Below are positions 137 through 59,613 of a stretch of DNA of 64,000 nucleotides, piece by piece. Made by a program: the position numbers and the translations under genes. The notes below the pieces were generated by a model. That model made no database searches, was not told the DNA's origin, and worked only from the letters and a program-made list of their open reading frames with translations. The DNA is from Hormiphora californensis (lineage: Eukaryota; Animalia; Ctenophora): assembly GCA_020137815.1 (NCBI GenBank), contig CM035353.1, positions 5,704,001 through 5,768,000 on the forward strand, read 5' to 3'. The first letter of the stretch is position 1. The number at the start of each line of letters is the position of its first letter.

Positions 137-811
137 ATGAGAAAGAACACAAGAAAACGATAGACATGATCGAGAAGGCGAGAATGAAGGCCCACGTTAT
201 TCCTGATGCCATAATGATTCTTGAACTGGATAACTCAAGGGCGGGGTTGAAGATCTTCAGCGATCTACGTCATTTCTCGCCGGTAATGGTAACATATGTA
301 ACTACTAGATGGAGTATTTCTCGCCAGTATACTTGTTTGATTGCCATTGCAAAAGAAATAATCATGCAATGAATCTCGATCGGATTCATAAAATGGCCTT
401 ATACGTAGCACGTTTATATTTTTCCTCACGTATCAACACTGCACTCTTTTCAGATGGCTCAGTTACCGCAAGTGTGGTTTAATGGCAAGCTGCTGGGAAC
501 TTATGAAACTTTGAAACGACTAAAGAAGTAAGATAACTACATTCCTCAATGCATCTTAATTTAATTTTCGATCATATATTTTTGTCTGAGACAAATATAT
601 TTTTCTAAGAACACCTCGATAAAACACGGAACACCTTTATTATTATACCTACAGGCTGCAAAGATTGGTGCCATTGCTACGTGAGACAGAGTTTGAGGGT
701 AAAATGCCATGTGAACATTGTCAGGCGGTGGTCCACGATTGGTACGGCAAGTGGCACCGTCAGCACTACCCCTACTTCGACAAAAACCTTCCATATGAAG
801 GATGGCCCTAG
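137..811 (+). CDS. Glutaredoxin-fold gene 1 (5'-incomplete), C-terminal PCEHC
   Basis: Exons 137-282, 454-527, 655-811 splice in frame: ..DEKEHKKTIDMIEK..LELDNSRAGLKIFSDLRHFSP|MAQLPQVWFNGKLLGTYETLKRLK|KLQRLVPLL..KMPCEHCQ..EGWP*. LPQVWFNGKLLG matches the Grx TVPQVFIxGxxIGG motif. Confidence 0.8.
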
Positions 812-1069
812 CTGACTGATCAAGTTTCCATTCACAAATGGGTTTGAAAAACTCTAAAAAAGTGTTTGAAGTGTTTTTCTCGTTTGAAATCCTGTTTGTT
901 GAAACATTTTACCGTTATCTTTTATTTGTTTTAGCTGTATAATTATAGAACAATCAGTTGTTTTTCTATTAATGTATGCAATACTATACAAACTAAGACG
1001 CCTGCAACTATATTATACAATTGCATGACACCCTATAACTCACTCTCCAATCTCCTCTAGCTAATACAC

Positions 1070-3118
1070 ATGGGTAAGCGAATAGAGATCGAGGTCATCT
1101 CCAGCTCCAGCTCCTCCGAGTCAGAAGGAGAGGATGACAGACAGCCACCGATGTCAGAGCAGGAAATCAGGCGCCAAATGAGGAAGGTGACGAATGTGAT
1201 GAAGCCTGAACATGTCCGACATTATGGTAGGTACAAGTATACCCGCTGGTATTACCCTTCTACTATTATACCACTTCCGGGTGACCTGCTACATTTAACC
1301 GGGGTTTGTTTATTATACTCAGCTAGTACTAACATACCTTTTAAATTTTAAGATATGAGGAATCTTAAGAACAAGCTGCTTGGAAAGAAGAAGCGTCCTG
1401 CACCAAATCCACCACTCAAATTTGGTTCACAACCTCCCACATTACACAGGTATTATTACACAAATATAGTGGAACCTAAAATTAGTGTACAAGAGTAAAA
1501 GTACGTTAATGTTCAGTACATTCAGTTGGATAACTTGATAGTGGCATATCGAATACAGTTGGTCCCAATGAGAAGGGTGTTTCTCACGCCTTTGAAAAGT
1601 TCATAACTACTTTGCTGATTGAGATAGTACCAGTATTATACGTTTTGACACGTTTTGGAAGGATAGCAAGTTGAATGAAAGCAAAATTTTGGCTCAATCT
1701 CAGATACAAGGATGGTGAAAATAGTTTGATGACAGTCCAATCTAAGCGATCAACATACAAAGGGACCTCCATATTGCCTCCATCCTTCAGTGGGCTAAAA
1801 GAAGAAAATCGAACACCGCAACACTTTGTATCAAAGGCCAGAGCCGTTCATTGGAGAGACCCAAGGTAAATACAAATTCTCGATTTTTAATTTAGTCCCC
1901 ACATTCTCTCTGCAGTAATAAAAACGTGTAGAAACACATATGATGTCACTATAAGAAAATATTATTATCACAGTTTGTTAGTGAAAAAAGATGTTGAGGA
2001 ATTTAGCACTGATCTTCTTCGAAAATATGGTGTAAAATGGTGGATAACAGAGCTTATGAAAAGGTATAACACCTCGATTTGCCGTGAATTAAACCCATTT
2101 TCCAAGTAGTCCAGTAATCTTTCTGGGTGATATGTATAGTAATATATTTTTCAGACTGGAAAAGGACCCTGGAAGTCTGATTGAGATACCAAACATAGCG
2201 TTCGAGGTTGTTCGTAACCATCCAGTGGTAGTGTTCAGCGCAAAAGGTTTGTTCAACATCCCAGTAAATCAGGATCCGACTGTATCAATTCAACTCGAGT
2301 TGTTGATGATACATGCGGACTCTGATTTACTGGGATGCTCGAGGGGGATGCCCTGTATGTATTGGGGTTCCGGCGAACTGGGGCCCCAGTTTACTCATCA
2401 GATTTATATTAATTACATACATCTGATGGATGTGTGAACTATAGGGTCAATTTCAAATGTGACAAGAATTATAATTTGTCTGTTCACATGCCTACGTAAT
2501 GTGGAAATAGTTACGAATCTGAATTAATATTTATGAACCTATCTAGGTTCAAAAAGCGGAAGAGAAACGTCGAAAAATGCTGGAGAGAGTGCAAGGAGAA
2601 GCACAATTTGGCAAAACAAACGTTCCTGGAGTTGATATTGGACGACAGTCGGGCTGGCTCAAAGACGTACAATGATCTTGTAATGGTGACTCAAATGAGA
2701 GGTGATTGTTAGAAATATCATTACGCAGCGTCTTAAGCGTGACTAGACCGAATAAATTTAATTAGACCAGAATTTGTCTATAGTACGTAACATAACTAGT
2801 ATCGCTCAATAGTTCGAGTCAATGAGACTCGCAAATTACAGCTAGACAAATTTCAAATAAATTATGAATTTATTTCGTACAGGTCTACCTCAGATTTTTA
2901 TTGGGGAAACGTTTATTGGCGGCTATGACTCACTGAAAAAGTTGAAGAAGTTTAAGAATCTATCGCCAATGATTCTCGACGCTATGGGATTTAACACCGT
3001 ACCATGCAAAATGTGTCAAAACGACCACCAAGATCGCCTCCACAACAGCGTGGAAACGTCGAGAAAGATGCATAGCAAAGCTCAACTTAGGGCTCAAATG
3101 TACCCGGGACACACGTGA
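1070..3118 (+). CDS. Glutaredoxin-fold gene 2 with long N-terminal extension, C-terminal PCKMC; apparent frameshift at ~2562
   Basis: Exons ~1070-1226, 1353-1449, 1791-1865, 1974-2063, 2155-2246, 2547-2701, 2883-3118. Motifs HPVVVFSAKG, LILDDSRAG, GLPQIFIGETFIGGYDSL, VPCKMCQ. The frame breaks inside exon 2547-2701. Confidence 0.75.
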
Positions 3119-3470
3119 CAGAATTAGCAATAATCAAATCAGCGGCCCCGCGGGAGGATATTGTGAGCTGATACGTTTGAATAAATAATTCCTGCATGGT
3201 GCAGTCCGCGGAGATGTAGCGGCCCCCGCCTTGACAATCCTTAATGAGATGAAGTGTGAATCTTGCAGGGAGAATCTTTTTGTATGTGATCGGATTAGAA
3301 GCTCTGTTGTCTGCGAATCTTGCAGGGAGAATCTTTTTGTATGTGATCGGATTAGAAGCTCTGTTGTTTTCTACAGCTCCCTGTGTTGATTTGATTGCCT
3401 GAACAAGCACTGAAGTGGAGAATATATCGAAATTGACCGCCATCCTTCTACCATTATAGCGTAGTAAAAT

Positions 3471-4150
3471 ATGATGAATTCTCTGATTGCCAAGATAAAG
3501 GAAAGACCAACTCCTAAGGCAAGCAAGGGAGCGGGAATAAACTCAGCGCAGTATTTCATCAAGAAATTTCCCGTTGTCCTTTTCCTCCAAACACGAAACA
3601 GAGATGGTTCCAGAACGGAGGCACTCCTTCAAAAGGTAGAGAGAGAGAACTGAAAACATCGCTCAACAGCGGAATAGATATATTCTTTAAAATTTATGTT
3701 AAAATCGATCCAAACTGTGCTAAAATATTGATTACATTGACATATTTACCTATCAATTCATGTTTCTAAAACCTCAGTTGCGATGGAGGTACGACCTTCC
3801 CTCGGAGCATGTAGTTACGGTAGAGGTCGATGGAGGAAAGGATGGAGCTAAACTTTACCAGGACCTTGTAAAACTTTCCGGTGTCACCAGCTTCCCACAG
3901 GTAGATATAAATAGTTTCTACCATAGTGTAGAGGATTGAGGAATATACATACACGTAGTAAGATAACAGAAAAAGAATAATAATACAATTTTAATGGATA
4001 ACATTTTTCTCACAGGTATTTGTAAATGAAACATACTTTGGACAATATCACGAGATCAAGGCATATTACACGAATGGATTTCTTGCGGACTATATGTTAA
4101 GAGGAATTGGAAAATGCCCAGATTGTGAAAACTGCAGAACAAATAAATGA
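3471..4150 (+). CDS. Glutaredoxin-fold gene 3, no active-site Cys, C-terminal CPDCENC
   Basis: Exons 3471-3635, 3778-3900, 4016-4150: FIKKFPVVLFLQTRNRDGSRTEALLQK|..VEVDGGKDGAKLYQDLVKLSGVTSFPQ|VFVNETYFGQYHEI..GIGKCPDCENCRTNK*. Confidence 0.85.
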
Positions 4151-4311
4151 GTTGTATTGGTCTTCTTCAAGTTGACTGCGAATATATGAATTCTAGTTTT
4201 ATACCATTTTGATACTTTCCAATTTGATATATTATATATCAGCATACAAATTAAGTGTATCAAATTCCCAGAATCTAATGTACATTTATCATCTATAGCT
4301 AGTATATCAGT

Positions 4312-5593
4312 ATGGATATTGGGCCACTAAGTCCAGTCAACAATAAGGTGCTATACTACATTCAAAAACACACTGCTGTCATATTCTCTGTGACAGGAAA
4401 CCGTAAGTTAACATATGCAATCGCCAATCATGTGTACACTAACCTGCATGACCCTGCAGACCAACAATCGGTGGGCCACATTGTACAAGTTGCAATCATG
4501 CAAGTTGCAATCATGTAAATTGGAGTTTTGAGCCAAAATCCGGCAATGCAACAACAGTTTACTGTCATTAAACATTATATGTTCTTTTTCCACGACCCAA
4601 TATGATGTTTACATTTGTACAGCGGAAGGAAGGAAGGTGGAACGACTACTCCAAGAAGTGAGATATCGGCACAAGCTACCAGCAAGGTTGATTGTAAAGA
4701 TAAAACTCGATCCGGAGTTAAAGAGCTCTAGGGCGATTATGGCGGATCTGTTTAGAGTTACAGGAACTACCAATCTCCCACAGGTAATATAGCTACATGG
4801 ATCCACTTATCAATATCAAATGTAGAGTGCTGCACGTTCTACCGTTGCTGAGACCAATGAACCCAAGGGTCACCACACACCAAAGTTAAAATTAAAATTA
4901 AAATTTTGATTTTAACGCCGCACACACTAGCGGCCGTTAAAATTTCTCTCCCCCATTCTAAAAGTAACGATCTCGCGCGCCAGTTTGACGGGTGTTAAAA
5001 TTTTAACACGCCGTCAAACTGGCGCGCGAGATCGTTACATTTAGAATGGGGGAGAGAAATTTTAACGGCCGCTGGTGTGTGCGGCGTTAAAATCAAAATT
5101 TTAATTTTAATTTTAACGTTGGTGTGTGGTGACCCTAATACTGGCGTTTCATCCACGATCTCCATCACTTAATTTGATTTATCTCCACGAGGTGTTTATC
5201 AACGAAACTTTTGTCGGTGGTTATTTTCAACTGAAAGCAACCCGAGATAGCGGCCAGCTTGCTCGTGAACTCATCCACGGTAATTATATAACTGTTAACT
5301 AATTAGTTAAGTTATAATTACTATTTGTAATTGACAACAACAAAATATTTGAACCAGTTATAACATCTGAACCAGTTATAACATCTCTACATATCTATAT
5401 GCAGGTAACGGTTTTGAGGAAGCCGAAGAAGCAAAGTTAGGTGATCGTCACGTTCATCTAAACGATGCATCTCACCCTTCCCACCCCTGGTTCGGAAGGA
5501 AAATATCACGAGTGATCCTCAGTACCCCGCATGCTCCCCGGCTCACATATTTCGATTACGAACGACCGAGCTTACCAAAGAATAGACGGTGAC
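4312..5593 (+). CDS. Glutaredoxin-fold gene 4, cysteine-free, His/Pro-rich tail
   Basis: Exons 4312-4402, 4623-4783, 5192-5278, 5405-5593: YIQKHTAVIFSVTGNPEGRKVERLL..VTGTTNLPQ|VFINETFVGGYFQLKATRDSGQLARELIHG..RHVHLNDASHPSHPW..KNRR*. Confidence 0.85.
4866..5136. mobile_element. Palindromic MITE (PIF/Harbinger-like GGG..CCC ends) in intron of Grx gene 4
   Basis: Near-perfect ~270-bp palindrome agggtcaccacacacc...ggtgtgtggtgaccct with essentially no spacer. Confidence 0.75.
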
Positions 5594-5972
5594 TGCATAT
5601 AATTACATGAATCCATTTGCCATGTGGTAATACGACTAATTGGTTTTATAGCGAAGGACTGAAAGCTGCAGAGAACTGAAATGAGCACCTCTACAGAATC
5701 ATCTTCCATTCGAGCTTCAAAAGTAATTATATAAATGATATCGGTTCTGTACCAATTGATCATTTAGAGATATTGCCTGTGGTGCGATCCTATAATAATG
5801 AAATGATATTGCTATATTGTGGGTGAAAATATAATATTTCTGTACAAGATTTACTAGTGGGAGATTTTTTATAACAATACATGGTTATATGATCATAGCA
5901 TATACCGCATGCTGAGCATATACACTCCAATTGTATATCATACTTGCCTAGCTAGACTGTGTTAGAACATAA

Positions 5973-6226
5973 GGGGAAACTCTAACTGAATGGAGGCGCA
6001 GTAATGGCGTCCCATCAATGGTAAAACTCTAATTGGATGGAAGGAATGATGGACAGAACGCGCGACCATGTCCGTGTGTTTGTCATCGCGCACTACGTAA
6101 AAGCCTCTTTCACAAGCAGAATGTGGCAAATCCTGGCGCGCCCAGAGTGATGGCTCCCATTATCAGTTAGAGTTTTTCAGTTGATGGGCTGCCATTACTG
6201 CGCGTGCATTCAGTTAGAGTTTCCCC
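5973..6226. mobile_element. PIF/Harbinger-type MITE
   Basis: TIR ggggaaactctaactgaatg / cattcagttagagtttcccc, TAA target-site duplication. A relative lies at 41958-42247. Confidence 0.85.
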
Positions 6227-6264
6227 TAACAATCTCATACCTATATTTTCTTGACTAGCCCTAT

Positions 6265-7654
6265 ATGGACGCGTTAGTTGCATTGGGAATTTCAAACTAT
6301 GTACTGTGGATGATAAGGAACGCAAGTAGTGTCCTCTTCACCAAGAATGGGTGTACTATCTGCAAAGCGGCCATGAAGGTTCTCAGACGAGTTGGTAGGT
6401 AGATCAAAATCTTTGTCTCAACTCAACAAAATCCTGAAATGAATTTTAAATCTGGAATTAAAACAGTAATTGAATGTGTATTACTCACGATCTTTGCAGG
6501 AAAAAGCACAGGGATAGTCGATAAAGACGTTACAGTTGTTGATCTGGATTCTCGAACAGATAAGGTACACACAGTAGGACCTTGGTATCGAAGACACCTT
6601 ACACTCTGCGCGCTGGCAAGGGGTAACTTCGTAACCTAAGTAGGACCCCCATTTACCGGCGTGTAAACTGTCTGTAAACCACCACCTCTAAAAACATACA
6701 GTCCGCGTAGCTCTTTTGTTGTGACATGTGCAGTTGTCTTAATCCACAATGACGTCTGTTTTTTGTAATGGAAGTCCCTTACCTGGTAGTTGGACAGCAT
6801 TTTAAGTAGGACGAGACAATATGAACAGTTTTACTCTGTCAGAGCATTGGTCCTGACCCTATTTTCATTTCTGCACGCGGAGTCCGGGCGAGATCAACTG
6901 TGGTCAGAGCATTGACCTGACAGGTTTTACTCAACTAGATGTAGAGAGAGATGTCGTTTACAGTCAATGGGCGGTGTCTCGCGTACTCGGCAAACCGAGG
7001 AAAAAATGAAAGCTTTCGAAAGGTTGAAACCAGTTGGCACTGTCAATTCCTGACAACTTGTAGCAGGTTTAAATTTGAATCTTGAATATATGGTGGGGTA
7101 TTGGGAGAAAACTAACATAAAAAATTTTCGCTCTATTCCAGGAAAACATTGCTTTAACTCGCTCTATTCCAGGAAAACATTGCTTTAACTCGCTCTATTC
7201 CAGGAAAACATTGCTTTAACTCCCTCTATTCCAGGAAAAGATTCTACGTGAATTGGAAGATCTGACAGGAGCTAAAACCGTACCACAACTGTTTGTTAAT
7301 GAGAGATATGTTGGTGGGCTTGAAGAAATGAAGGTAACTAAATTCAGTTATGTACAACGGTTATGTAATTTTGGCGTGCGTGCGTACGCTCCCATTTCAA
7401 GTAGGCTTACTAAAAATAGTATCGCAGTTAAAGGATGAGGTTCCACTCACAACCTATAGTTTGTATATCTTCTTTAGGAAGAATATAGAAATAGAAGGCT
7501 ACACAAGGAGTACGCACTGGCAAGGGCTGTGGATAAGAAAACCTGTGTGGATTGTGAATGGAAAAATGTACAGAAAAATATGACCACTGGAGGCCAGCAT
7601 AAAAAAAACGGACTTGAACAATATCGATACATCACAGACTCTGAATCTGACTGA
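6265..7654 (+). CDS. Glutaredoxin-fold gene 5, active site CTIC, C-terminal TCVDC
   Basis: Exons 6265-6394, 6500-6564, 7235-7333, 7478-7654: VLFTKNGCTICKAAMKVL..VVDLDSRTDK|EKILRELEDLTGAKTVPQLFVNERYVGGLEEMK|..DKKTCVDCEW..SESD*. Confidence 0.9.
7130..7240 (+). repeat. 31-bp tandem repeat containing the splice acceptor
   Basis: cgctctattccag|gaaaacattgctttaact x3, then the functional acceptor ccctctattccag|gaaaag at 7234. Confidence 0.85.
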
Positions 7655-7880
7655 GGAAGCTCTGTAGAAGAGATACGAGAATTGAAAAGATTTCAAATAC
7701 TAAGTTATTTATATGGATATTATTTGTCGCGTACCCCTTACTCAACAAGATATTATTATTTATACTGATAGCTGTCTGAATAAACTTCTTTTTTATAAGA
7801 CACTGACAACTACTACAACTACTACAACTAACACTATTTTTAATATTCAATATTCATAGCTTGAATGGTTTTCATTCTAA

Positions 7881-9810
7881 ATGGTTCACCCTGTTGACAT
7901 TTTGAAAAGTGGCGTACCAGTAACCTTCCAATGGCTCCTTCAACAGGTAGACTCTCAGCCCCTTCCACTTCCATGTACTCACCCCTTACTTCCATGTACT
8001 GGATACATGTATAACAGTCAGATCCCGATTCACCAAGATACCCGGGGTATATCGGGGTTCGACTGTATATTTACATATTTATTTGATACACAGCATTTAT
8101 CAGCTCATATATCCTGTGCAGGTTCGAATCCTAGTTGTGTCAGATAGCGAGTGCATATGGTGCAAAAAGGCGAAGGATATTCTGACTAAAGTTGGACGAC
8201 AGAGTCTCCTAAATGACAATGAAATGTTTTTCTTGAACATCAATCAGTTCAAACAGGGGAAACGGGTAAGTGGAAATAACCATGTTTAGGAATCATAAGG
8301 AACCGAGCCTTTTGCTTCATTAGATTTGTTCTGTTCTCAGACCAAAACGGTTTTTCATTACCGTTTTCTCACTATACAAGCTCAGTAGTAGGCTGAATTG
8401 CATCCACTGCACCAGTAGTAGTATGTACCGTTAATTTATACCAAATGTTTAGCTGTTTAAAGAGGTAAAAGAGATGACTGGCGTGGAATCCGTGCCGCAA
8501 ATCTTCATTGATGAAACATTTATTGGTAAGTGCTTTCTACACTGGACATACCAGGCCCACCTATTAAATAAAGATATAATTTTCTTTTAGAATCGTTCAA
8601 TATATCCGTTGATTCTCATCCGTCAAAAACCCCGCCCCCGGTACCGTACTACAGTCGGACCCCGATTTAGGGACACTCTCGGGGGAAAGGCTCTTGTCCA
8701 CTAAATCGGGGTGTCCACTAAATCGGGGTCAAATAAGGTTAATTTCCTATATCGGGGGGAAAAAATCCTGTCCCTAAATCGGGGTGCCACTAAATCGGGG
8801 TCCGACTGTACTACCGTTTATAAGCCCATTAAATACACGTGACTGCGACCACGTGGGATCAGATCTTACAGAACTGAAAACGGAACCATTTAGTTATAGC
8901 TATAAGCTACATTTTAGAGAGATAGGTGCAGTACAAGCTGCACAGAGCCCAGATGACAGTCTGGCTTGTTGTAAACGTTTCACCTGTCAGTTTAACTCGG
9001 CCCAACAGAATTGCTTCTGTCGGGCCGAGAAGTTGACAGGTGAAACGTTTACAATATTTGATTCTCAGTGCGCGATGGGGTCACCAGACAAGCCCGAGAG
9101 AAGCTGATATGACAGTTGTGCACCCGCGGTAGAGTGATCTGAGCAACTACCTGCATGTGTTCTGGGTCCCAGACGACATGTGGGTTGTTTCTGACTGCAT
9201 ACATGTCAAATTTGTCGTCTAAGCCATGCTCTAGGATAACTTGATTTATATTTAGATAGATTTAAAAAACAGCTTTTAGAATCATGTTGTACTGTTTCTA
9301 ACATTATTCTTCTAACAGGTGGTTACCCTGATTTGAAAATGTTGCACGAGCGGCGGTATGTCCATGAGATGCTACTACCGAAGCAAGACCACGTCAAGCA
9401 GAAACAGGAGCACCAAGAACTGACAAAAAAGACAAAATTTGGAACTTTTATCGATCTGGATAACACTGTAGGTATAACTTGCGATTTATATAATTACAAC
9501 GCATATGGCAATTCTAGACCCCCATAGCCCCAAATTTTCAAAGGCTATGATATTTTTGTCCCCTACTTACTTTTAGGATTCTCCTTAATACATATTGATT
9601 AGATCACATAGATGTTCTAAACGTATAGTAGACTGGCGATTCAACAGAAGACAAAGTTTCTCGAAAATTTTTCCCTGACGTCATTAATAATCCATTTGTA
9701 ATCCAAATTTGCTGCAGATGTGCCCGATGTGTGTGGCTGAGGAAATTCAGAAAATGAGGTTGGAAAAGAAGGAAGCCGATCTAAAACTAAAAGCCAAAGA
9801 TTACATGTAA
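7881..9810 (+). CDS. Glutaredoxin-fold gene 6, active site CIWC, C-terminal CPMC plus helical tail
   Basis: Exons 7881-7946, 8122-8265, 8453-8525, 9319-9467, 9718-9810: ILVVSDSECIWCKKAKDIL..MTGVESVPQIFIDETFIG|GYPDL..DNT|MCPMCVAEEIQKMRLEKKEADLKLKAKDYM*. Confidence 0.88.
8652..8808. mobile_element. Tc1/mariner(pogo)-type MITE, cagtcggaccccgattt family
   Basis: TIR cagtcggaccccgattt / aaatcggggtccgactg, TA TSD. Other copies at 22395-22533, 22842-23013, 28122-28200 and 43928-44098. Confidence 0.9.
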
Positions 9811-9816
9811 TTACCT

Positions 9817-9960
9817 AGGGTGTCCCATATATTCTAAGGGTCGGTTGGCGAGCTGTCACACAAATCAAACAGGAAGGAATTAATCCAGCACACTCCCGTG
9901 TTTACACTGTTTTTGCGTGACAGCTCGTCAACTGACCCTCAAAATATATGGGACACCCTG
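9817..9960. mobile_element. Tc1/mariner-type MITE in 3' flank of Grx gene 6
   Basis: Inverted arms agggtgtcccatatat..gagctgtcac / gtgacagctc..atatatgggacaccct. Confidence 0.7.
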
Positions 9961-10397
9961 TATGATATAAGAGAAGTATATTCAATTTGTCCCTGCTTTT
10001 CTACGTGGCATGGTTTCCTCATGAAGGTTTCCTCTGCGGGAGAAAGCTTCTTGTTGCAACGAGTTAAAAGCTTTAAATGAAAACACAACAATCGAGCCTT
10101 CAAAAGTTTAATTGACCATGACAACTTAACCCCCCAGGTTGGCCCGTTCAGCGGTGGAATTGGCCCGAAAGCAGTTAAACAAACATCATAACAAACACAG
10201 CCACGGGTCATCGAAGAGCTTTATGTCAAAATTATTTTGAAGTTGATATCAGAGATCAGACAATTATCATTTCCGTTTATATTTTGGGAAGATTATTATA
10301 TATACGTTTCAACTCCACGTCATAGTTTTGGTATAATACATGTTCAGATAAACGCTATGATAATATTCCTGATCCTACAATACATTTACAGGGCAGT

Positions 10398-11705
10398 ATG
10401 TCAGGCGTAGAGGCTTTGCTGGGTCTGGGTATTGCCACAAATGCGATGTGGCTCATACAGAATGCTAAAATTGTTATCTTTGGCAAAGACGGTTGCAAAT
10501 GGTGCAAAAAACTATCCAGGTATATTCGTTAATAAAAATTCATTGTAAACGAAAAGGAACAAAAAAATGAATTCCACTAACAAAAACCCCATCTCAATTG
10601 ATTGATAAACTGAACCATATGTTTCACCTAGGTACATATCGAAACTGGGCCACGATTACCCGTTTGGTGATGATGATATAGTCCATGTTGATATTGACAA
10701 GATCAAGGACGGTTATGATGTGAGTACTACATTAAGGTGACATAGACACCTGGCGCGACCCCCGCTCAATCTCTGTCGCGTCAGGTGTCTATGTCACCAA
10801 AGTACTACATCGATCCTTCAAAATCTTTATACAAGTGTTTTTGGTCAGGGTTGTATCACAAAAAACCGTTCCTTCACACTGCGCCAATAATATGACATTA
10901 TATGACAAGGAGAATGGATCCAATTGTATTTTCAAACGACAAACACTGCTGCCGTACACAACTAGTATAGTGTGAAGTTATGAATCATGTGCTGCTTGTT
11001 ACAGATGTTTGATGAAGTCAGTAAGATCACGGGAAACAACACAGTCCCACAGGTTGGCGCTTTCTCTATTAAAATTCTAAAATACGAATCTTCAATTCCA
11101 TTTCAAAGCCTTTCCTTACTTGCCATCTATTTTGGTAGTACCTGTCCGCTTGAAAGACATATATCCATTAATCATTAATCAATCTCGTGTCTGGGACTTG
11201 GGAGGTGTCAACTGTAAAAGTTTATCTCTCCTCAATATTTGCAGGTCTTTGTGGACGAGACATACGTGGGAGGGTATCCTGAGTTCAAGAACATGTACAA
11301 TCGGAAACAAATTCACAAGATACTAAACCCTGTCATGCAGAAGGGATCAGAGAAGCCCTGTGTTGATTGCCATAAGGTGAGACAGTGCGTATATCTCCTC
11401 TTCTTGTTGAGTTGGGAAACCCAATTGAACTATCGTGATGCGTTCGTAAATGCGATATGGTATGCGACACTATTAGATTGAGTGCTCGTGAGTGATCAGC
11501 ATGGTCTATTAAGATGATGGAGATACTATCAGACTATCTAAAGTTTTGAGGTGAACTCTAACCCCTGCTGATCCATTATATCCAGGATATTGAGAAGGAG
11601 AAAGTGGAGAGAAGGAAGAAGTTGGATAAGATTCTTAGAAAACAGCTAGACGAGGACTTGTTGTTTATAAACAACAATATTAGTACACCGGCATTCGTTA
11701 AATGA
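10398..11705 (+). CDS. Glutaredoxin-fold gene 7, active site CKWC, C-terminal PCVDC plus helical tail
   Basis: Exons 10398-10519, 10633-10719, 11005-11052, 11245-11376, 11586-11705: IVIFGKDGCKWCKKLSRYI..VHVDIDKIKDGYD|MFDEVSKITGNNTVPQ|VFVDETYVGGYPEF..EKPCVDCHK|DIEKEKVERRKKLDKILRKQL..*. Confidence 0.9.
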
Positions 11706-11992
11706 GTTGATATCTTGGACTTATAACAGTTGCTAGGTTTATGATGAGTTTGAAATTTCGATCTGGCAGTGCTTATTATAGTTAGCTGTACAGTTTTTTA
11801 TGCTACTAATACCTCAATGTATAATTATTATGGCCTCTTTTAGTTTAACCACAACTCACAAGTATTTTCTTGCCCCCCCCCCCAATTCCTCCCACTATTT
11901 AAGCTATAAATAATAACAACTAATATCTAATTTATAATACATAAATCAAGCTAGCATGTAAAAAGGCAAAGATATAAAGTAGCAGGGGAAGT

Positions 11993-13303
11993 ATGTCTAT
12001 GCTTTGGAGTCTGGTCAGTACTATCCAGCTGAAAAAGATAGTAATATTCAATAGGTACTGAGAATCTGATTACCCGGCCGCTTGCTGTCTGGCGCCGCCG
12101 ACCCCATCTGAGCGCACTGAGAATCAAATGGGGTATGGCGCCGCCATACAGGCAGCTTGTAGTAGTGGAGAAACGGTTTTCCATTACAGAACGCAGACTC
12201 TGCACTACAAGCACCACTACACTGTACCAGTGGTGCATGTAGTGGAGATACCGCATGATTATTGAGTAGGGGCTAATATAACATTGCAGTTTATATCTTT
12301 CTTGGCAAAACATTAACCTCTCTCACTCTTTCTGTTGGATTCAAGGTCCAAATCGGTCTACACGAAAAAGATAAAGAAGTTGATTACTAAAAACGGCTAT
12401 AAAGATGATGACTGCTTGGTGAGAACATGACACAGAAATCTTTTTGGTATCTATAAGTGAAATTTGAAAACTGCGACCAGTTGAAATTAAATTGAGTCCA
12501 ATATCATTATGACCCACTACGAATTCAGATTTATTCTTCAGGTTATCAACCTTGACGAGTTGAAAGCTGGTGATAATGTTCTTGCAAACTTATACAAACT
12601 AACTGGTAATTAATATTTAATTAGTAACTACTCATTTTGTTGTTTAAACTCGGCTGTTCTAGAAAACAGTATTGTGTTTATGGTACATGGGACACTGCAA
12701 CATATCCCCTTACTGCTGCAGGTGACACGGACTTACCGAAGGTTTTTGTAGAAGAGACCTACATGGGTGGGTACAATGACTTAAAAGCTGCCGTTATGAC
12801 TGGACAATTCAAATACATATCAAGAGATAGGTATATTTATTTGATTGGTATCTAAATATTGAGAGTATTGACCCTTACTACTTGGTTATCACATTACGAC
12901 CATCTTCTCGCCAAGAAACTGTATTGGTCAGATACCGTATCCCCACTACTACAACTGCAGTAGTGAGGATACGGTGTACTTGTATCAAGTAGCACTGTTA
13001 TAATCAGGAACCGACCGAATCAGGAAATACTGGTCCCTGATTGGCTGATAACCAGTCACGTGACCTAGATAACGAGTTCTGATTGGTTGTTTACTTGTAT
13101 CAAGTAGAACTGTTATAATGTCCCTTTTCAGGGGGTGTATTGAATGTGACGATAATTGGAAAAGTAACCGGTTCACTGATAAGCTTGATATCCTACCAAC
13201 CCTACCCGCCACAACAGCTGTTCCATTACAAACCTCGTCCGCCTTCGGGAAGGCACTGGGGGCCAAGGAGTTTTCTATCAAACCATCTTTCGGTAAACAT
13301 TAA
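11993..13303 (+). CDS. Glutaredoxin-fold gene 8, active site replaced (SVYT), C-terminal GCIEC
   Basis: Exons 11993-12054, 12346-12419, 12542-12605, 12722-12830, 13132-13303: KKIVIFNRSKSVYTKKIKKLI..VINLDELKAGDNVLANLYKLTGDTDLPKVFVEETYMGGYNDL..RGCIECDD..GKH*. Confidence 0.85.
12085..12152. repeat. Short dispersed repeat family (tgtctggcgccgccgaccccatctgagcgcact)
   Basis: Related copies at ~13321-13385, 16856-16936 (reverse), 20385-20445 and 31284-31345. Confidence 0.7.
12977..13119. repeat. Intronic interspersed element bounded by a 28-bp direct repeat
   Basis: tacttgtatcaagtag(c/a)actgttataat at 12977-13004 and 13092-13119 flanks caggaaccgaccgaatcagg..tgattggctgataaccagtcacgtgacc. Confidence 0.65.
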
Positions 13304-23092: not shown

Positions 23093-30885
<7,793 letters not shown>

Positions 30886-34737: not shown

Positions 34738-36711
34738 TCACATTTTGCAGTCGACGTGCTTGAAATCCTTGCCGTTCACAATTCGTATTTTATCGTGATC
34801 ACCCTCTTTAAAAGCGTCATCTGAAACGTATTTTATAGGTTCTAAGTTGAATGATTAATTACAAATTACAAATAGAAATACTATACTCCCCCTCCTTTAG
34901 AACTGGCGGTGAGAGAAAGAAGAATATAATGTTTGATTCTGGCACCAAATGTTGCCACGTGTTTTCCGTGCACCTACCACAAACAGAACAGTTGATACAG
35001 GCATGATGGTAGGCTGATTCCCTGTAGATGAGGCTGGTTCCAGCGATGGGTTTTTTACACACGTCACACTTCTTTCGGAAGTGGTCATTCTGGCAACCCA
35101 GACACACCGGCTTCCCTGTGAGATGATACATTTGAAATAGTGTATATGCAAATAGTAACTGGTAGTGAAATCACTGAACAACGTTCTACAACTGAGGTGC
35201 CGACCCGATTTGAGCACATTGTCGCTGAAAGTCAAAACTGGATAGTGGATCTGGCGCCGCCAGAAAACAAGCTCGGTCAATCGGTTGTGGAATGTATTTT
35301 ACCTACCAAGGTTGGTGCTGAAGGATTCTTTGCTATCGATCAGCCGTCCACAGTGGGAACAAGTGAAACATCCGTGATGCCAACGTTTCTCTAGCGCAAC
35401 AACCCAAGAACTATCAGTGTCTTTACCACATCCCCCACACGCCTTGTCCCTATAAACATATGGTTGTTATAATACAACGCGTGCAGGCAGCACAGGCAGG
35501 TCAATGCTATGACAGCGTGCAGATATAAAATAATTCTCAATAAGTGGGAATTGAATATTTGACAAGATAACTAAATTTAGGTCCCCACTAATTAATATTG
35601 TGATATTTCCCACGTGGTACCATAAGATACGACACTTCACATGTTACAAATGTAAAGGGAGGGTTAGAGCATATTACTCACGTTATGGTCATGTCGGACA
35701 TGCCTTTTGAAACTCTACAGTCAGTGCATTTTGGGACGTCTTTACCACTCTTGTTCACCTAATTGGAGAAAAAAGGGATTATAATTGCCCGCCCCGTTAT
35801 ACCTATAGGTAATAGGTACGAACACTTTGGTCCATTCTCCCAACTTCCTTATACTTATAGGGCGTCAAGTTCTATTTTTGATTTTTGAGTAGATACGTCA
35901 GGAGAGTGGATTGGCCGAAGTGTTCGTACCCGGTACCATGTCTTGCTGACAATAATAGGGCGTATCTCAGGAAATGTTAGAGAATTAGTCAGAAGAACTC
36001 ACCTTGTAAAACTTTTCCTTCGGATCGATAACTCTATCGCACTCTACACATTTGAAACAATCACTGTGCCACTTTTCACCCAAACCAATTACCCACGACT
36101 TCTCTATCTCCTTATCGCACCCATAACATATCCTGGGAAAAGATGTGTATTATCCGGTGGTAGTCATTCCTCTTTGTTGAGGATAAGCAAATAAAAAAGT
36201 TCCAACAGGAAAGGTCTTTAGATCAGGTTGCTTTTTATAATAAATTAAATTGATATGAAACTTACTTCTTCTCGCCAATGCTTGGATCTTCCTTCTTGGC
36301 GCAATCAACACACGTTCGTTTTCCTGAGGAAGGAATCAAGTTACATTCCTTCAGCTTCAATGAGCTTGATAGCAAACAAAATATAAAAGATGCAAAATAC
36401 GTGATAAACGTTCGTTACTCAACAAAACGTTCGCGTTTCGCTATCTCCTTTTTACCTTGGTCCTTTTTCAGCGACTCAGTGGACTCAATCCTTCTTTTAC
36501 AACTGTGACACGTAAAGCATTTCCGATGAAACTTAGTTTTATTGAAATCAATCCAACTTGTGTCTGTGATGACCTCAAAACACTCGTGACACGTGGCCAC
36601 CATTACCGATAGAGGTATTGAAATGGGATCTTGTTGTTGCGGTGGTGGTGAGACGCTGTCAGCAGGTCCTCTTTTTGTAAGGACGATACCCGCAGAGCTA
36701 CGGACCGACAT
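34738..36711 (-). CDS. Four-LIM-domain protein (paxillin/FHL/PINCH-like LIM array)
   Basis: Spliced LIMs: CHEC..FHRKCFTCHSC..CVDC; CYGC..WHSDCFKCVEC..CTDC; CGGC..WHHGCFTCSHC..CLGC; CDVC..YHHACINCSVC..HVDC. Stop at 34738; start Met at 36711 or 36603. Confidence 0.88.
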
Positions 36712-37708
36712 ACGTGTTGGCTGGTTAGTGATACGCAAACAGTAACATATGGGCAGAAAGATATATATGGGCTTTTGAAGATAAAGGAAAGCGTGCCTTG
36801 AAGAATTCCTGTCAGAGCATTGGCTTGACCATGACAAATTAAAAATTCTAATATATGGTGGGAAATCGGTGAATAAGAACACACTCAGTGAATCATTTTG
36901 CCATTTCGGGCACACAAATCCGCAAAGAAAGGTAAATCAAGACATGACGTTGTAACAATACTGGGCTGTTACGTTATGGTGCAATGTAACACTGATGTGT
37001 AGAATATAGAGCTTCCCACAATAGATAGTCACAATGATTTTCTCTCTCTCTATCTATCTCCCTCTCTCTGTCTCTCTTAGTCGCGTCGAAGTCCTCGCTC
37101 TCTCATTTCATCTCAGGTCAGACCCTATAGCTCATCTTGGCTTCACAAACATAATATGACTAGGATTTGATGTATAATTCAATGGAACTCAATGCACCAT
37201 GAAACGTATACCAACATAAAATGGTAATGCATGTTTACATTTCTATCGAGATATGTTAGACAATTAAGTATGGGTAGTCTGCAACTACAATTTCTAGATC
37301 TGTTGAATTTGCATGCATGGCCATGACACATCTTACTCTTAGAAAGCATTGGAAAGTATGTTAATTTGAATGCTTTTAGTTAAAGAATCCGTAGGAAACA
37401 CTGTAAATCCCATACAGGCAGTGTTTAGTTTGGTGACATTAGTGAGATCGCGCAGCGACCGAGATCGATCTCACATCGATCTCACATTATTCGTAAAGCG
37501 AAAATAGGAATTGTTATGGGTGTTAAGTGTAGTTTTTGAGATAAATTATTGAACAGCCAAATTTATATTTGCTGCATAATACCATAATATTTTACACGAA
37601 CGTCGAACGGGCTCTATATGTAATAAAAAAGACTAAAAGAGCAATAGAGTGTGTGCCGTTTGTAGGTACAGCTTGAGCTTGCAGGAGAAAAGAATAGAAA
37701 AATATCGC

Positions 37709-39965: not shown

Positions 39966-42900
39966 TTAGATTAGTTGGTCGTTATCACACACAGTGCTGA
40001 CACTGGCGATGGAGGCACGTTCTGTTAGATCCAAACCAAGCTGATCTACCATTCCAATTAACTGAGAACTGAGAGGGGGATAGTGTGTTATTATTGGAGA
40101 GATGTTAATGTAAAAACAAACCCCAGGGTCAGCAGCTGGAATTTAATATTCATGGCGATAGGAATCATACTGAACTGTAGGTACAAAACTGCCAGTTTAG
40201 TTCACACTAGTAAATCTAGATCACACTAGTGGGTCATTCTCATGAAATTGACACCAAAATTTCAAACTTGTCCGATTTCGATAAAACTTATATCATCTGA
40301 AAGCACGTAATGGACTTAGTATTTCTGTATACGTGGACTTCATAATTATTGCATAATTAAATAATTATGAGTAATTAAAGCCGCGTACGTTACGCAACGA
40401 CCGTTACGTGATGGACGTTACAATGCAATTTAATTACAATTGCATGTAAAGTGGTCGTAATGACCATAACGTCTATGGTCGTTACAAATTTAACGACCGT
40501 TACGTGATGGTCGTTATTTCGTAACGTCCATAACGTTACGGACGTTACAGGTGTAATGTCTGTGCAAATAACTTTGTGGCGGAGTCAAATTCATGACCTT
40601 ATAAGGTCTGTCACGGTCATTACATCTTGAATTTTGTAACGTCCATAACGTCATGGTCGTTACTTTCGTAGCGACCATAACGTTATGGACGTTACAAATT
40701 TAACGACCGTAACGTGATGGTCGTTACATTTTTAACGACCGTTACGTTACGGTCGAATGTCACGGTCGTTACAATCATTACATTTTTCACTATCAAAGCA
40801 ATTTAAATCCAAATTAGTTACAAGTATGCTTTCATACTTCTCAATCAGACAGATCTCTTTGAGAGCTACCGCTGGATACCCATTTTTACGTCGTACGACA
40901 ACCATAACTGATTTTATGAGCGATTTTATGAGCGTCACGGTCGTCATGGTCATTACGTCCACGCCGAAAATCGGTCATTTTTAGCATATTATGCGTCATT
41001 ATTCATTCATATGATACATAATTGTACCATACTGTTCATTTTTCGTTAATTTAGACATTTTTCTACATTCTGGTACCAAAATTACCAAAGTTGACCAATG
41101 TTAAGATGCTCTAAAGGCAGGACCAAAATCTCTCATCTCGAAGTGTCAATTTTATGAGAATGACCCTAGTACCTAGTAAACTCAAACTGACCAACGTACG
41201 TACCGATGAATATCAAGTTGCTCTTGTAACTCACTCATCCTGTCACCCTTTGCACTGCTGCTCCTGTCGATGTAACCCTTCAGCATTTTCAGGGAACTCC
41301 TCAGAGCATCAGACATTTCCAGGGACTTGGCCTCCTCTTGTCCGTGGGTCATCTGCAAGATCTGATACCTGGGCAGGGGTATTGAATGTAGTGATGGGGG
41401 GTGGGAGAAGGGACGTCTGATACTTTTGATGCTCTCTGACTGATTGTAGGAGATAAGCAGTAAAACTGTGGGAACTGTATCCCGGTATCCGTAGTAACAC
41501 TTTTTCGCTAAATGCAGGTTTCAAAGTCACCTGTGACCCAATCGTCCCCAATTCAAAGGGTTAAAAACGAACGGTTTAAATTAGCAGCTTATAAACTCGG
41601 GAATGAAAACAGTTTTCCAATCTTTACCTTTCTTTTAAGTCTTCCACCTGAAGCTCCAGTGTTTTGCACTTTTCAGCCATGGATACAGTCTCAAGTTGGG
41701 ACACATGAGATGCAGCTACTGATATTCGGGATTGTGAGGCTAGACCTGCCAGAGAAATAATATATTACAGTCCGCCATACACATTTCCACTTGGAATTCT
41801 CTTAGAGTGCGTTCTACACATCCTAAAAAACTATGGTTTACCTGCTTACTAACTTAGAATTTAGTAGAGCGATTTGAGAAAATATTATACAAAACGACGT
41901 GATGCCGTTTAGAATACACTCACAATGGAAACATTTTTTATTTGTGAACCTCTACAAGGGGAAACTCTAACTGAATGGCATCCCATTAATGGGATCACAT
42001 CAACAGTAAAACTCTAACTGATAATGGACCACAGTGATGGTTCTTTCTCTGTATTCTCTCTGTGTGCGTGCCCGTGCCCGGGCATGCCCTATAGTTCTTT
42101 CTCTGTATTCTCTTTGTAGGCAGTACATATATGTACTGCCTACAGAGAGAATACAGAGAAAGAACCATCACTGTGGTCCATTATCAGTTAGAGTTTTACT
42201 GTTGATGTGATCCCATTAATGGGATGCCATTCAGTTAGAGTTTCCCCCAACTTAATTAACTAATTATCTACTATTATATATGCTAGCTAAATGTTCTAGA
42301 TCATAACGCCATTGATCATACCATGTAGGTTATCGTTGAAAGATGTTCTGCTGTCCTCTACAACCCGGTTGCCATGGTGCCGTATAGACTCATCAGACAA
42401 GTCCAGCACCTTGTTGTTAGTGGACCGGTTAGGTGTTGAAGAGAGGATCTGGTCTGACTCATATTCCCGGATTTGCTCCTGCAGGCATAACAAGGTTAAA
42501 CGAGAGATATACAAGTAGCTAGAGTTAGTCCTGGGTCCCTTGTCAGCGCTATAATATTGCGCTGACCCCGCGCACAGTGTTACTTTGGGGTAGTTTCACC
42601 ACACAAAGGTCTTGGCGCGCTACGTTTTAGCAACTGAACTCTCAGGAGAGTCGGGCGGTGAATCACCTGCATTAGCGTGATGAATCACCTGCATTAGCGT
42701 GATGAATCACCTGCATTAGCGCAGTGAATCAGCTGCATTAGCGTGGTGAATCACCTGCATTAGCGTGGTGAATCACCTATTCACCTGGTGAAAGCAGGTT
42801 TATCCACGCGAATTTCTCATGCACTATACCTTTAGTGATGAATTCTTGGATCTTTCTGCGTCCAATTTCCCCTTCAAACTGGTTATGGTTCGTTTAAAGT

Positions 42901-45900
42901 GCTCATTTTCATGCTCCATATCCTCTTCATAATCAGCCCTCTCTCGCATGGTAATCTGAGAGATGTGCATGCAGGTTAGTAAAACACTGCGAGAACACTT
43001 TTCTTACTCATATCCCACTGCCTTCATATCTGCACGGTCCCGCAGGAGCACAGTGCAAATTTCACCGTGCAAATGGTCGCGCGGTATATATGTGTGCATG
43101 TTCGCATTTGTATTAACTCGCATTCACCCAGGCAGGGAAAAATAGAGGTAGATAAGAACCAAGTGTTGAGCAACTTACCAATTCGTCCTCTTTTTCCCGA
43201 AGCAATTCTCTCATCTTTTTTAATTTGTTTTTCAGAATTCCATTATCGTGTTCATGCTTTACCAACCTATACACCAAGTATCATGGTTATAGTGGCACAA
43301 TATAATAACGTATACAATATTGTACTCGAACTATAATACATGTCGGTACAAGTTTGATTGGATGTTCACTTCGAGCATTTTTTCTTTGTTGAGCTACTCA
43401 AAAACTCGATCTGCAGGGATCATGCAATTACCTGCTATTCTGGGTACTGAGACTCTGCACTTGTGTTTGAAGGAGCTGGTTTTGTGAGAGGAGCTCGTTT
43501 CCAACCTGCTCCTTAGACAGGTCAATGAGGGAGTTATCAAGCTGGTACTTGTACTCGTCCCTGTGAAGGGAGGGAAGTAATGAGTTGTCAAGCGAATACT
43601 TGTACTCGTCTCTGAGGGTGTGGGGTGATCATGGAGATTGGAGTCTGTGTAATTTATATTTATCCCTCCTTCGATTATTAATCCTGTTGAATATTGATTA
43701 TTGAAGTGTACCTTTCCTGGGTGAGGTTTTTGTTCCTCACTCGGAGGTCCTCCATTTCCTCGGATAGTGAGGTGTTGTTTCGGTTCAGTTCACTGTTCGT
43801 CATCATTATCTGATGGAGGGTCTCCTGGAGGGCCGCCATTCCTGGTAAAGAGAGACAATATAATTAAAATAGCACTTGGGGCGCTAGGTTTGGTCGTGGA
43901 GGCAGTGTTAAAAAACAATATTAATTACAGTCGGACCCCGATTTAGGGGCCCCCGATTTAGTGGCACCCCGATTTAGGGACAGGATTTTTTCCCCCGATA
44001 TAGGAAATTAACCTTATTTGACCCCGATTTAGTGGATACCCCGATTTAGTGGACAAGAGCCTTTCCCCCGAGGGTGTCCCTAAATCGGGGTCCGACTGTA
44101 TAAATATTAATCTTTATTTTTGGGTAGCTCACCATGTTTCAGTTCTTTTAGTTTTTCTGCTCCACTCTTTTGTTTGTAGTCTTCAAACCTCTCCAGAACC
44201 TCTGTAACATTCCTTTGCAGCATTTCCTGGGTATCTACAGGAGTTTTTGATTTAATTAGTGACAGTTTAAAACTTACGGATCCGACCAATAGATCGAATA
44301 ACCAGAAATAACTTTACAATGATCTATTATAATTGCAAGAGTTTACTCTTTCCAATTCTCTCGCAAAGGAAACTACACAAACCTGAAGCACGTTGGTTGA
44401 CCCGTTCCACTTCCTTTCTCTCCCTCCTCAGTTCTCTTTCCAGACCCTCGTTCACCTCTTCCAGCTCGCCCACCCTCTCGCTCAGCTCCTCAACTACCTC
44501 GGGAGGGTGCTGAAGGGTGGCTATGTTGCTCTCAAGGGTATCCAGCTCATCTCGTGCCACTTGTAGAGACTCTCGCAGCTTCTCTGCCTCGCTCTGAGGG
44601 GATGGTGAGAGTGAGCTACGGTATCTGGAACTATGCTAGTCCAGGGCGGAATTTTTTATGCCCACCCCTGTATAATTGAAACAGCAGAGGTATTCCATCA
44701 TGATTATCTCTTTCTCTCCGGGATTATCTCTTTCTATCTGGGAAGACACCAATTGAGTGAGTACATACCCTGTTTCGAACTAGTTCCTCCTGTACGTTGA
44801 AAAGCTCATCCTGTGCCTTAGACAGCTCACTTAGACAGTCTTCTAACTTTCGTCCCTTTTCAGCCTAGAAACATAGAAAAACGTTATGCTGATCCTGATA
44901 GGAATTTCCAGAAGGGAAGGAGGTGAACCACTGCAATTGCCATTCGCTCTCTACAATTTTCGTGCAAATTGAGAATAACATCTGGAAGCTGAAAGAGTTG
45001 TTCACCTTTTCCTTGAAGCTAATATTTAGATCATCCAGTAACTTCTCCTTTTCCTCCCCTTGTGTTGATAACAATCTCGATAGTTCTTCCCTATAAACAG
45101 AACGTGCGTTAACAGGAAGTACATACAAGAAATAACTGGGGCTCACTAAAACAAGATGTTACTGACTTGTCAGCGAGGAGTATTTCCATTTGTGATTTTG
45201 AGGTATTTAGTTGGCCTTCCAGGGAATCCCGTCTGTTCTCTGTCTCTATTCGCTCCTCTTTTAGTTCTCGTAGCTTCTCCTTCAGCTGGCACCTTTGAAG
45301 GAAATCATGTTTTAAATATGGCCAGCTTACATATCTCTTGTGGTTTGAGTGGTAAAATTCGCCACCAGATTGGATCAGTCTGTCAAAAAGCAAATACAAC
45401 TCAAAAACAAGCGGTTGGTTAGGTCACTCAGTAATAAAACCCTCTCACCGTTCTGCATCGGATACTTCTAACTTTTCAGTCACCGCATCCAGCTCCTGCT
45501 TTAGGGCGGTATTATGGGCGCTCATTTGAGAGAGTTCCCAATCAGTTGCTTTCAGAGTGTCCTTCACCCCTGCCGTTTCCTGGAATGAAGGGGTTATAGG
45601 AAACAACTCAGATTCCTGCAAAGATAGGATTATGATACAAGTTAAAACTTAGATCTAGGTCTAAATTGTTATGCTCTAACAACAAACCTCTCTCTCCCTC
45701 ATCCATAAAGCAGCGACAGCAGCAATGGCCGGGGTAGTAAAATTATCACTGGGGTGTTTGTTGCCCCCACCACTTGACACGGTATCCTTTAGTTTGGCAG
45801 CTTCCCTACACAAGGTCTCCCTCTCACTCTCCAGGGAGGTGATATGTTGCTGTAGTTGGGCGATCTGTCCACTCATTGCATGGTAATCTAAAGGATCAGA

Positions 45901-47976: not shown

Positions 47977-48012
<36 letters not shown>

Positions 48013-48015
48013 TCT

Positions 48016-48077
<62 letters not shown>

Positions 48078-48083
48078 TCCCCC

Positions 48084-48146
<63 letters not shown>

Positions 48147-59546: not shown

Positions 59547-59613
<67 letters not shown>

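What the first reader, a model, noticed from the sequence alone, without database searches (positions are those of the whole stretch)
137..13303. Eight-gene tandem array of an unusual glutaredoxin family with a conserved single C-terminal CxxC
Seen: eight consecutive + strand genes encode a Grx fold ([LVF]P[QK][VIL][FW]xxxxxxG motif). Seven have one CxxC in the tail after the fold: PCEHC, PCKMC, KCPDC, TCVDC, MCPMC, PCVDC, GCIEC. This tail motif is better conserved than the canonical active site, and in genes 6 and 7 it is followed by a charged amphipathic helix. Established: GRXCR1/2-type proteins are Grx-like with four C-terminal CxxC and act in hair-cell stereocilia; the Rad50 hook binds one Zn using one CxxC from each of two chains. 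Inference: a lineage-specific family in which a half-site CxxC bridges two subunits via Zn or Fe-S, allowing hetero-oligomers of catalytic and non-catalytic Grx, or acts as a second redox relay.
Basis: partly seen in the sequence, partly recalled or inferred. Interest (0 to 1): 0.85.

Follow-up and report, generated by a model that had tools for sequence, protein, structure and literature searches.

The report
Comb-jelly glutaredoxin array with cysteine tails
A genome that is likely a comb jelly's carries a row of eight old, diverged glutaredoxin genes, five without the catalytic cysteines and seven with an extra conserved cysteine pair in the tail (one of them by predicted splicing), which likely binds a metal ion shared between two protein chains.

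Summary
The array is real: eight + strand genes at 137-13303 encode class I (Grx1/Grx2-type) glutaredoxin folds. RNA contigs support 12 of 28 modelled introns. Orthologues of genes 1, 7 and 8 (72-81% identical) have neighbouring locus tags in Mnemiopsis leidyi. Seven of 8 genes have a tail CxxC; only 3 of 8 keep an active-site CxxC, none canonical. All 11 homologous sequences that cover the tail keep both cysteines, and in three orthologues (473, 271, 156 aa) these are the only cysteines. Corrections: gene 1 is cut by the window edge, gene 2 is frameshifted in this assembly, gene 6's tail rests on a predicted splice. It is not GRXCR (four CxxC) and not a Rad50-type hook. Best mechanism (0.5): the pair is half of a metal site (zinc more likely than Fe-S) completed by a second chain. 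Main rival: a redox dithiol at a helix start (0.25). Metal binding and dimers are untested. Eight paper searches found no description; taxonomic range was not searched exhaustively. Verdict: new variant of a known family.

The parts
137..811 (+). g1, 3' part (exons 137-282, 454-527, 655-811); 5' exons lie outside the window; tail CEHC 710-721 followed by a conserved HxxH; orthologue has no active-site Cys
   Evidence: intron 528-654 in RNA; 72% to M. leidyi G015093 = P0002
1070..3118 (+). g2 (exons 1070-1226, 1353-1449, 1704-1865, 1974-2063, 2155-2246, 2547-2701, 2883-3118); long basic N-terminal extension; no active-site Cys; tail CKMC 3005-3016
   Evidence: 48% to P0003, 63% to P0008; joint 2063/2155 loosely supported by X2; 5' exons predicted only
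2547..2600 (+). net 2-base frameshift in g2 exon 6: assembly error or broken allele, not resolved
   Evidence: three frames match orthologues P0003 and P0008 in turn
3471..4150 (+). g3 (exons 3471-3635, 3778-3900, 4016-4150), 140 aa; no active-site Cys; tail CxxCxxC 4115-4135
   Evidence: intron 1 in RNA
4312..5592 (+). g4 (exons 4312-4402, 4623-4783, 5192-5279, 5405-5592), 175 aa; no cysteine at all
   Evidence: predicted from splice signals and 38% identity to g3
6265..7654 (+). g5 (exons 6265-6394, 6500-6564, 7235-7333, 7478-7654), 156 aa; active site CTIC 6352-6363 with Lys at -3; tail CVDC 7544-7555
   Evidence: introns 2 and 3 in RNA; PF00462 on exon 3
7881..9810 (+). g6 (exons 7881-7946, 8122-8265, 8453-8525, 9319-9467, 9718-9810), 174 aa; active site CIWC 8152-8163 with Asp at -3; tail CPMC 9721-9732 on a predicted last exon
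   Evidence: intron 3 in RNA; last intron predicted only
10398..11705 (+). g7 (exons 10398-10519, 10632-10719, 11005-11052, 11245-11376, 11586-11705), 169 aa; active site CKWC 10494-10505 with Lys at -3; tail CVDC 11359-11370, then a long charged helix
   Evidence: introns 1-3 in RNA; 72% to M. leidyi G015098 = P0001; AF2 model of P0001
11993..13303 (+). g8 (exons 11993-12054, 12346-12418, 12542-12605, 12722-12830, 13132-13303), 159 aa; no active-site Cys; tail CIEC 13136-13147
   Evidence: all 4 introns in RNA; 81% to M. leidyi G015099 = P0004

Best explanation
These are eight old tandem copies of a class I glutaredoxin, five of which lack the catalytic cysteines, and the conserved tail CxxC likely acts as half of a four-thiolate metal site (zinc more likely than an Fe-S cluster) that a second chain would complete. 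Shown: genes, fold, loss of active sites, conservation of the tail pair. Inferred: two thiolates cannot fill a tetrahedral site, no second ligand set is shared in cis across the family, so the pair would clasp homo- or heterodimers, or a partner protein with its own Cys/His pair; Cys-less members would then work as non-enzymatic binding modules, and g5 and g7 as slow or specialised oxidoreductases.
For: Fold: best NCBIfam match TIGR02180 GRX_euk for 4 of 5 proteins scanned, second for the fragment P0008; AF2 model pLDDT 86.7 matches class I Grx at Z 16.8, rmsd 1.9 over 108 residues. Tail pair kept in 11 of 11 homologous sequences that cover it (several are near-duplicates), with flanks only 5-8 of 22 identical in 5 of 9 pairs. 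It is the only Cys pair in P0002, P0003 and P0004, so it is not a resolving pair for an own active site. Spacing is always x2. 0 of 16 ordinary Grx loci carry it. Possible cis His ligands differ between members. Precedents, read as passages: Rad50 hook, Zn(Cys2)2 between two chains, where even a 4-residue peptide forms the dimer with logK 14.9 (PMC5093744); CPXC of NUBP1/Nbp35/Cfd1 bridging [4Fe-4S] in homo- and heterodimers (PMC8007109). That cytosolic CxxC pairs outside a thioredoxin site usually bind metal is my own knowledge.
Against: No metal or dimer data exist. In the model the pair caps the start of a helix after a flexible linker (pLDDT about 59), a geometry also typical of redox dithiols, and there is no hairpin. 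One g2 orthologue has a weak, below-cutoff match to the Erv-type Pox_E10 family over the tail (E 0.0067). Nothing beside the two Cys is shared by all tails, so no common dimer surface is visible. g4 does without the pair. g1 has a conserved HxxH and g3 a third Cys that could complete a site in cis.
Confidence: 0.5

Rival explanations
1. The tail CxxC is a redox dithiol/disulfide: a switch, an electron shuttle or a cross-linking site, reduced by the active members (g5, g7) or by glutathione.
For: CxxC at a helix start in the model; frequent Pro before the first Cys; weak Pox_E10 match; gene family of redox origin.
Against: Kept where the rest of the redox machinery is lost; inner residues vary freely; no flavin or thioredoxin-type scaffold around it.
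Confidence: 0.25
2. Each member completes a zinc site within one chain using its own His or Cys (g1 CxxC plus HxxH, g3 third Cys, g5-g7 active-site pair).
For: CxxC-x11-HxxH is conserved in g1, P0002, P0005, P0007; g8 and P0004 both end in His.
Against: No shared pattern across members; His positions after the pair are not aligned among g2 orthologues; no zinc-finger Pfam match for P0002 or P0005 at E up to 10.
Confidence: 0.13
3. The family is a set of truncated GRXCR-like proteins that keep only the first CxxC of the zinc finger.
For: The pair follows the last Grx helix, about where the GRXCR cysteine-rich region begins (recalled, not aligned here).
Against: The GRXCR pattern CX2CX7CX2CX20CX2CX7C (PMC6114524) is absent; every search points to class I Grx; three members have a dithiol site.
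Confidence: 0.07
4. The pair forms a plain structural disulfide or has no role of its own.
For: g4 lacks it; extra cysteines are common in animal Grx (PMC8161271 passage on GLRX1).
Against: Strict retention with diverged flanks; i,i+3 disulfides add little stability (own knowledge).
Confidence: 0.05

Closest known systems
Class I eukaryotic glutaredoxins (yeast Grx1/2, human GLRX2, TXNRD3 Grx domain; TIGR02180, PF00462)
   Same: Fold with N-terminal helix, cis-Pro motif, GG motif; best sequence and structure matches.
   Different: All below the TIGR02180 cutoff; 5 of 8 lack active-site Cys; none has C(G/P/S)Y(C/S); extra tail CxxC and member-specific tails.
GRXCR1/GRXCR2 and plant GRX-like proteins with four CxxC
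   Same: Grx-like domain followed by cysteines; GRXCR2 also lacks active-site Cys (PMC6114524).
   Different: One CxxC instead of a four-pair finger; Grx domain of class I type.
Zebrafish Grx2
   Same: Class I Grx reported to bind an Fe-S cluster without glutathione (cited in PMC6135854; original paper not held).
   Different: Binds as a monomer; that it uses four non-active-site Cys is recalled; here most members have only two Cys.
Rad50 zinc hook
   Same: One CxxC per chain, which may give an interchain Zn(Cys2)2 site.
   Different: No hairpin at the apex of an antiparallel coiled coil; unrelated protein.
NUBP1/Nbp35/Cfd1 C-terminal CPXC
   Same: Single two-Cys motif that bridges a metal centre in homo- and heterodimers (PMC8007109).
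   Different: P-loop NTPases; only g3 and g6 have CPxC spacing; no evidence for Fe-S here.

Membership tests
Class I glutaredoxin | Grx fold with cis-Pro and GG motifs | tested here: met
   AF2 model of g7 orthologue, Z 16.8, rmsd 1.9, 108 aligned to yeast Grx1; motifs in all eight, GG changed in g1 and g3
Class I glutaredoxin | Active site C(G/P/S)Y(C/S) (as given for Arabidopsis in PMC13621322) | tested here: not met
   CTIC, CIWC, CKWC in g5-g7; no Cys there in g2, g3, g4, g8 and the g1 orthologue
Class I glutaredoxin | Basic residue before the active site (glutathione activator, PMC5382279 section 5) | tested here: inconclusive
   Lys at -3 in g5 and g7 as in yeast Grx2; Asp in g6
Class I glutaredoxin | Glutathione-dependent oxidoreductase activity | not testable with these tools
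   needs assay
Class I glutaredoxin | Phylogenetic placement among GLRX1/GLRX2/TXNRD domains | not tested
   no eukaryotic Grx sequences were on hand; the tree had only bacterial-type outgroups
GRXCR1/2 and four-CxxC GRX-like proteins | C-terminal CX2CX7CX2CX20CX2CX7C | tested here: not met
   tails hold two Cys (three in g3); whole orthologues hold two or four Cys
Class II (CGFS) glutaredoxin | CGFS active site | tested here: not met
   absent in all eight
Plant class IV GRX-like | Grx fused to DEP and DUF547, about 630 aa | tested here: not met
   no such Pfam match in P0001-P0004; lengths 140-473 aa
SH3BGR | PF04908 above cutoff | tested here: not met
   16.8 bits against cutoff 21, versus 44.2 for PF00462; fold Z 8.0 versus 16.8
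Rad50 zinc hook | CxxC at the apex of a long antiparallel coiled coil from an ATPase | tested here: not met
   small Grx proteins; pair lies between a linker and one helix
Rad50 zinc hook | Beta-hairpin around the CxxC | tested here: inconclusive
   none in the metal-free model, but pLDDT is about 59 there
Interchain metal clasp (works like) | One metal per two chains, lost on Cys change | not testable with these tools
   needs metal analysis and SEC-MALS

The most novel reading that the evidence does not exclude
Comb jellies evolved a combinatorial glutaredoxin system: a metal clasp in the tail pairs catalytically dead pseudo-glutaredoxins (targeting subunits with long His/Lys-rich extensions) with active paralogues from the same gene array, making a zinc- or Fe-S-gated heterodimer code that dissolves on oxidation.
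Probability: 0.2. Interest if true: 0.8.

Novelty: new variant of a known kind. Interest (0 to 1): 0.5.

Why it matters
Glutaredoxins are well studied, and animals are thought to have only a handful. An old, syntenic eight-gene subfamily in the sister group of other animals, mostly without catalytic cysteines but under strict selection on a new cysteine pair, is a ready test case for how a redox enzyme turns into a metal-linked binding module. If the clasp is real it would be a new way of joining glutaredoxins, away from the active site and without glutathione. The proteins are small and easy to test.

Tried and rejected
Complex prediction of two copies of P0003 (105-271) with Zn gave 'no answer' (score 0.00 in 2 of 2 runs, alignment not used): no evidence either way. 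Single-sequence AF2 of P0001 was poor (pLDDT 43) and was replaced by an alignment-based model. The exhaustive profile search of 1.84 billion representatives could not be run, so taxonomic range is open and orthologues of g3-g6 were not seen; the third word-based search covered only 301-2000 aa and found nothing. The metagenome scan returned 16 ordinary, mostly bacterial-type Grx loci. RNA contigs of X1 do not cover g2 or g4, and neither run covers the g2 frameshift; absence of cover proves nothing, and contigs cannot rank expression. The fold searches span residues 9-119 only, so the tail has no tested structural match. Colloblast link rejected: the three Grx among Mnemiopsis colloblast candidates (ML000715a, ML00694a, ML047916a; PMC6278862 supplement rows) have two thioredoxin-fold domains in 215-253 aa, unlike this family. 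Comb-plate link: the preprint 10.1101/2022.03.27.486007 has no 'redoxin' in its main text; its supplements are closed and may bear on this. The Beroe genome supplement had no hit. The Mnemiopsis single-cell paper and the zebrafish Grx2 paper are not held. Giant-virus Grx clusters top the Atlas feature list for P0001 but not for P0004; not taken as a sign of transfer. Alternative splices to avoid the g2 frameshift need weak donors and fit the orthologues worse. Earlier scan findings were empty or unrelated.
Full report
1. What is in the sequence. Six-frame translation found the cis-Pro motif in the array and exon chains for eight genes on the + strand between 137 and 13303. All 28 modelled introns are GT-AG. 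Contigs of a poly(A) run (X1) show 12 of these 28 joints, in g1, g3, g5, g6, g7 and g8; a second, more distant run loosely supports one g2 joint. A profile of the family finds no other member in the 64 kb on either strand. Seven genes carry a CxxC after the last helix of the fold; g4 has no cysteine. Three genes have an active-site CxxC (g5 CTIC, g6 CIWC, g7 CKWC). g1 is cut by the window start. g2 has a net 2-base frameshift in exon 6: the start of the exon matches orthologue P0003 in one frame, a short middle stretch matches P0008 in another, the rest matches in the third; a sequencing error and a broken allele are both possible. The g6 tail needs a predicted last intron.

2. Organism and orthologues. 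A word-based search with exon alignments returned 4 proteins among 5664 candidates: Mnemiopsis leidyi G015093, G015098, G015099 and an unnamed protein P0003. They are orthologues of g1 (72%), g7 (72%), g8 (81%) and g2 (48%). The locus tags and accessions run in the same order and leave four loci for g2-g6, which I did not see; so the array is at least partly syntenic, and the window most likely comes from a related ctenophore (inference). A second search gave 14 hits among 1091 candidates: 13 family members or fragments and one bacterial-type Grx. All 11 sequences that cover the tail keep both cysteines; several are near-duplicates, leaving about eight informative ones. In 5 of 9 anchored pairs only 5-8 of 22 flanking residues are identical. 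In P0002 (473 aa), P0003 (271 aa) and P0004 (156 aa) the tail pair is the only cysteine content. None of 16 ordinary Grx loci has it. No family member with a non-ctenophore name appeared, but these searches are not exhaustive.

3. Family. TIGR02180 (eukaryotic glutaredoxin) is the best NCBIfam model for 4 of 5 proteins, always below cutoff. The best solved relatives by sequence are yeast Grx2, the TXNRD3 Grx domain and human GLRX2 (E about 1e-10). The AF2 model of P0001 from a 28-row alignment (pLDDT 86.7) matches class I Grx (Foldseek E 4.5e-9; Z 16.8, rmsd 1.9, 108 aligned), far above SH3BGRL (Z 8.0). The Atlas lists only PF00462-type clusters near P0001 and P0004. A tree of 13 array rows and 9 bacterial-type Grx (g1, g2 and long orthologues trimmed to the domain plus tail) puts g1-g4 together with 99/96 support, which matches their physical order and their shared loss of the active site; g5-g7 are unresolved or weakly grouped. 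The tree cannot test monophyly against eukaryotic Grx. g1 and g2 orthologues also share a helical segment before the Grx domain (hhalign probability 99). Intron positions are mostly not shared (one position in g3, g4, g7; one in g6, g7), which points to old duplications.

4. Mechanism. Shown: strict conservation of a two-cysteine motif that is independent of the active site. In the metal-free model it follows a flexible linker and starts a 37-residue helix. Inferred: two thiolates need two more ligands. Candidates within the chain differ by member (HxxH in g1 and its three homologues, a third Cys in g3, a terminal His in g8), so the simplest common solution is a second chain. Precedents are the Rad50 hook (PMC5093744) and the CPXC of NUBP1/Nbp35/Cfd1 (PMC8007109). 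I put this at 0.5, a redox dithiol at 0.25, member-specific cis zinc sites at 0.13, a GRXCR remnant at 0.07 and a plain or idle pair at 0.05. Of the three members with an active-site pair, g5 and g7 keep the lysine three residues before the first Cys that active Grx need (PMC5382279, section 5; alignment), g6 has Asp, so perhaps two of eight are enzymes (inference). Cell type and biological role are open.

5. Comparison and novelty. It descends from class I Grx but fails the active-site test; it is not GRXCR (pattern from PMC6114524 absent), not class II or IV, not SH3BGR, not a Rad50 hook by architecture, though it may work like an interchain clasp. Eight full-text searches found no description of this family or of a Grx with a single tail CxxC; most subscription papers are outside the library. 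What I saw of each paper: passages from PMC6278862 (plus supplement rows), 10.1101/2024.07.25.605162, PMC6114524, PMC8161271, PMC6135854, 10.1101/2022.03.27.486007, PMC13621322, PMC5093744, PMC6284068, PMC8007109; abstract and section 5 of PMC5382279; a supplement search of PMC11184263; the rest as search listings only. The zebrafish Grx2 ligands, the position of the GRXCR finger relative to the fold, and the general link of CxxC pairs to zinc are recalled.

6. Verdict. Observation confirmed with three caveats; interpretation partly supported; new variant of a known kind; interest 0.5.

Noticed in passing
window 2547-2600: Two apparent single-base surpluses within about 50 bases of g2 exon 6, next to short A and GA runs; may signal indel errors in this assembly.
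   Followed up: partly
P0002 residues 1-300 (g1 orthologue; upstream of the window): Long His-, Lys-, Trp- and Tyr-rich N-terminal extension with 29 His and no Pfam match; g1 and g2 orthologues share a GPxWWL-like helical segment just before the Grx domain.
   Followed up: partly
window 710-790: g1 tail has CxxC-x11-HxxH followed by an aromatic-rich end, conserved in three homologues; could be a separate small zinc module.
   Followed up: partly
window 4866-5136, 5959-6240, 9817-9959, 8643-8817, 2257-2337: Inverted-repeat elements (MITE-like; first has 126-nt arms, 98% complementary) in introns and spacers of the array.
   Followed up: no
window 7128-7243: 31-nt tandem repeat that copies the splice acceptor of g5 exon 3 several times; RNA uses the last copy.
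   Followed up: partly
window 30103-30885 +: Exons of a voltage-gated potassium channel-like gene (Ion_trans E 5e-13).
   Followed up: no
window 34859-36936 -: LIM-domain gene (two LIM matches).
   Followed up: no
window about 42000-61000 -: Large coiled-coil gene with a 1092-codon open exon at 49511-52789, no Pfam match above cutoff.
   Followed up: no
PMC6278862 supplement (not in the window): Mnemiopsis also has at least three two-domain Grx among colloblast candidates, so ctenophores may have a second Grx expansion.
   Followed up: no
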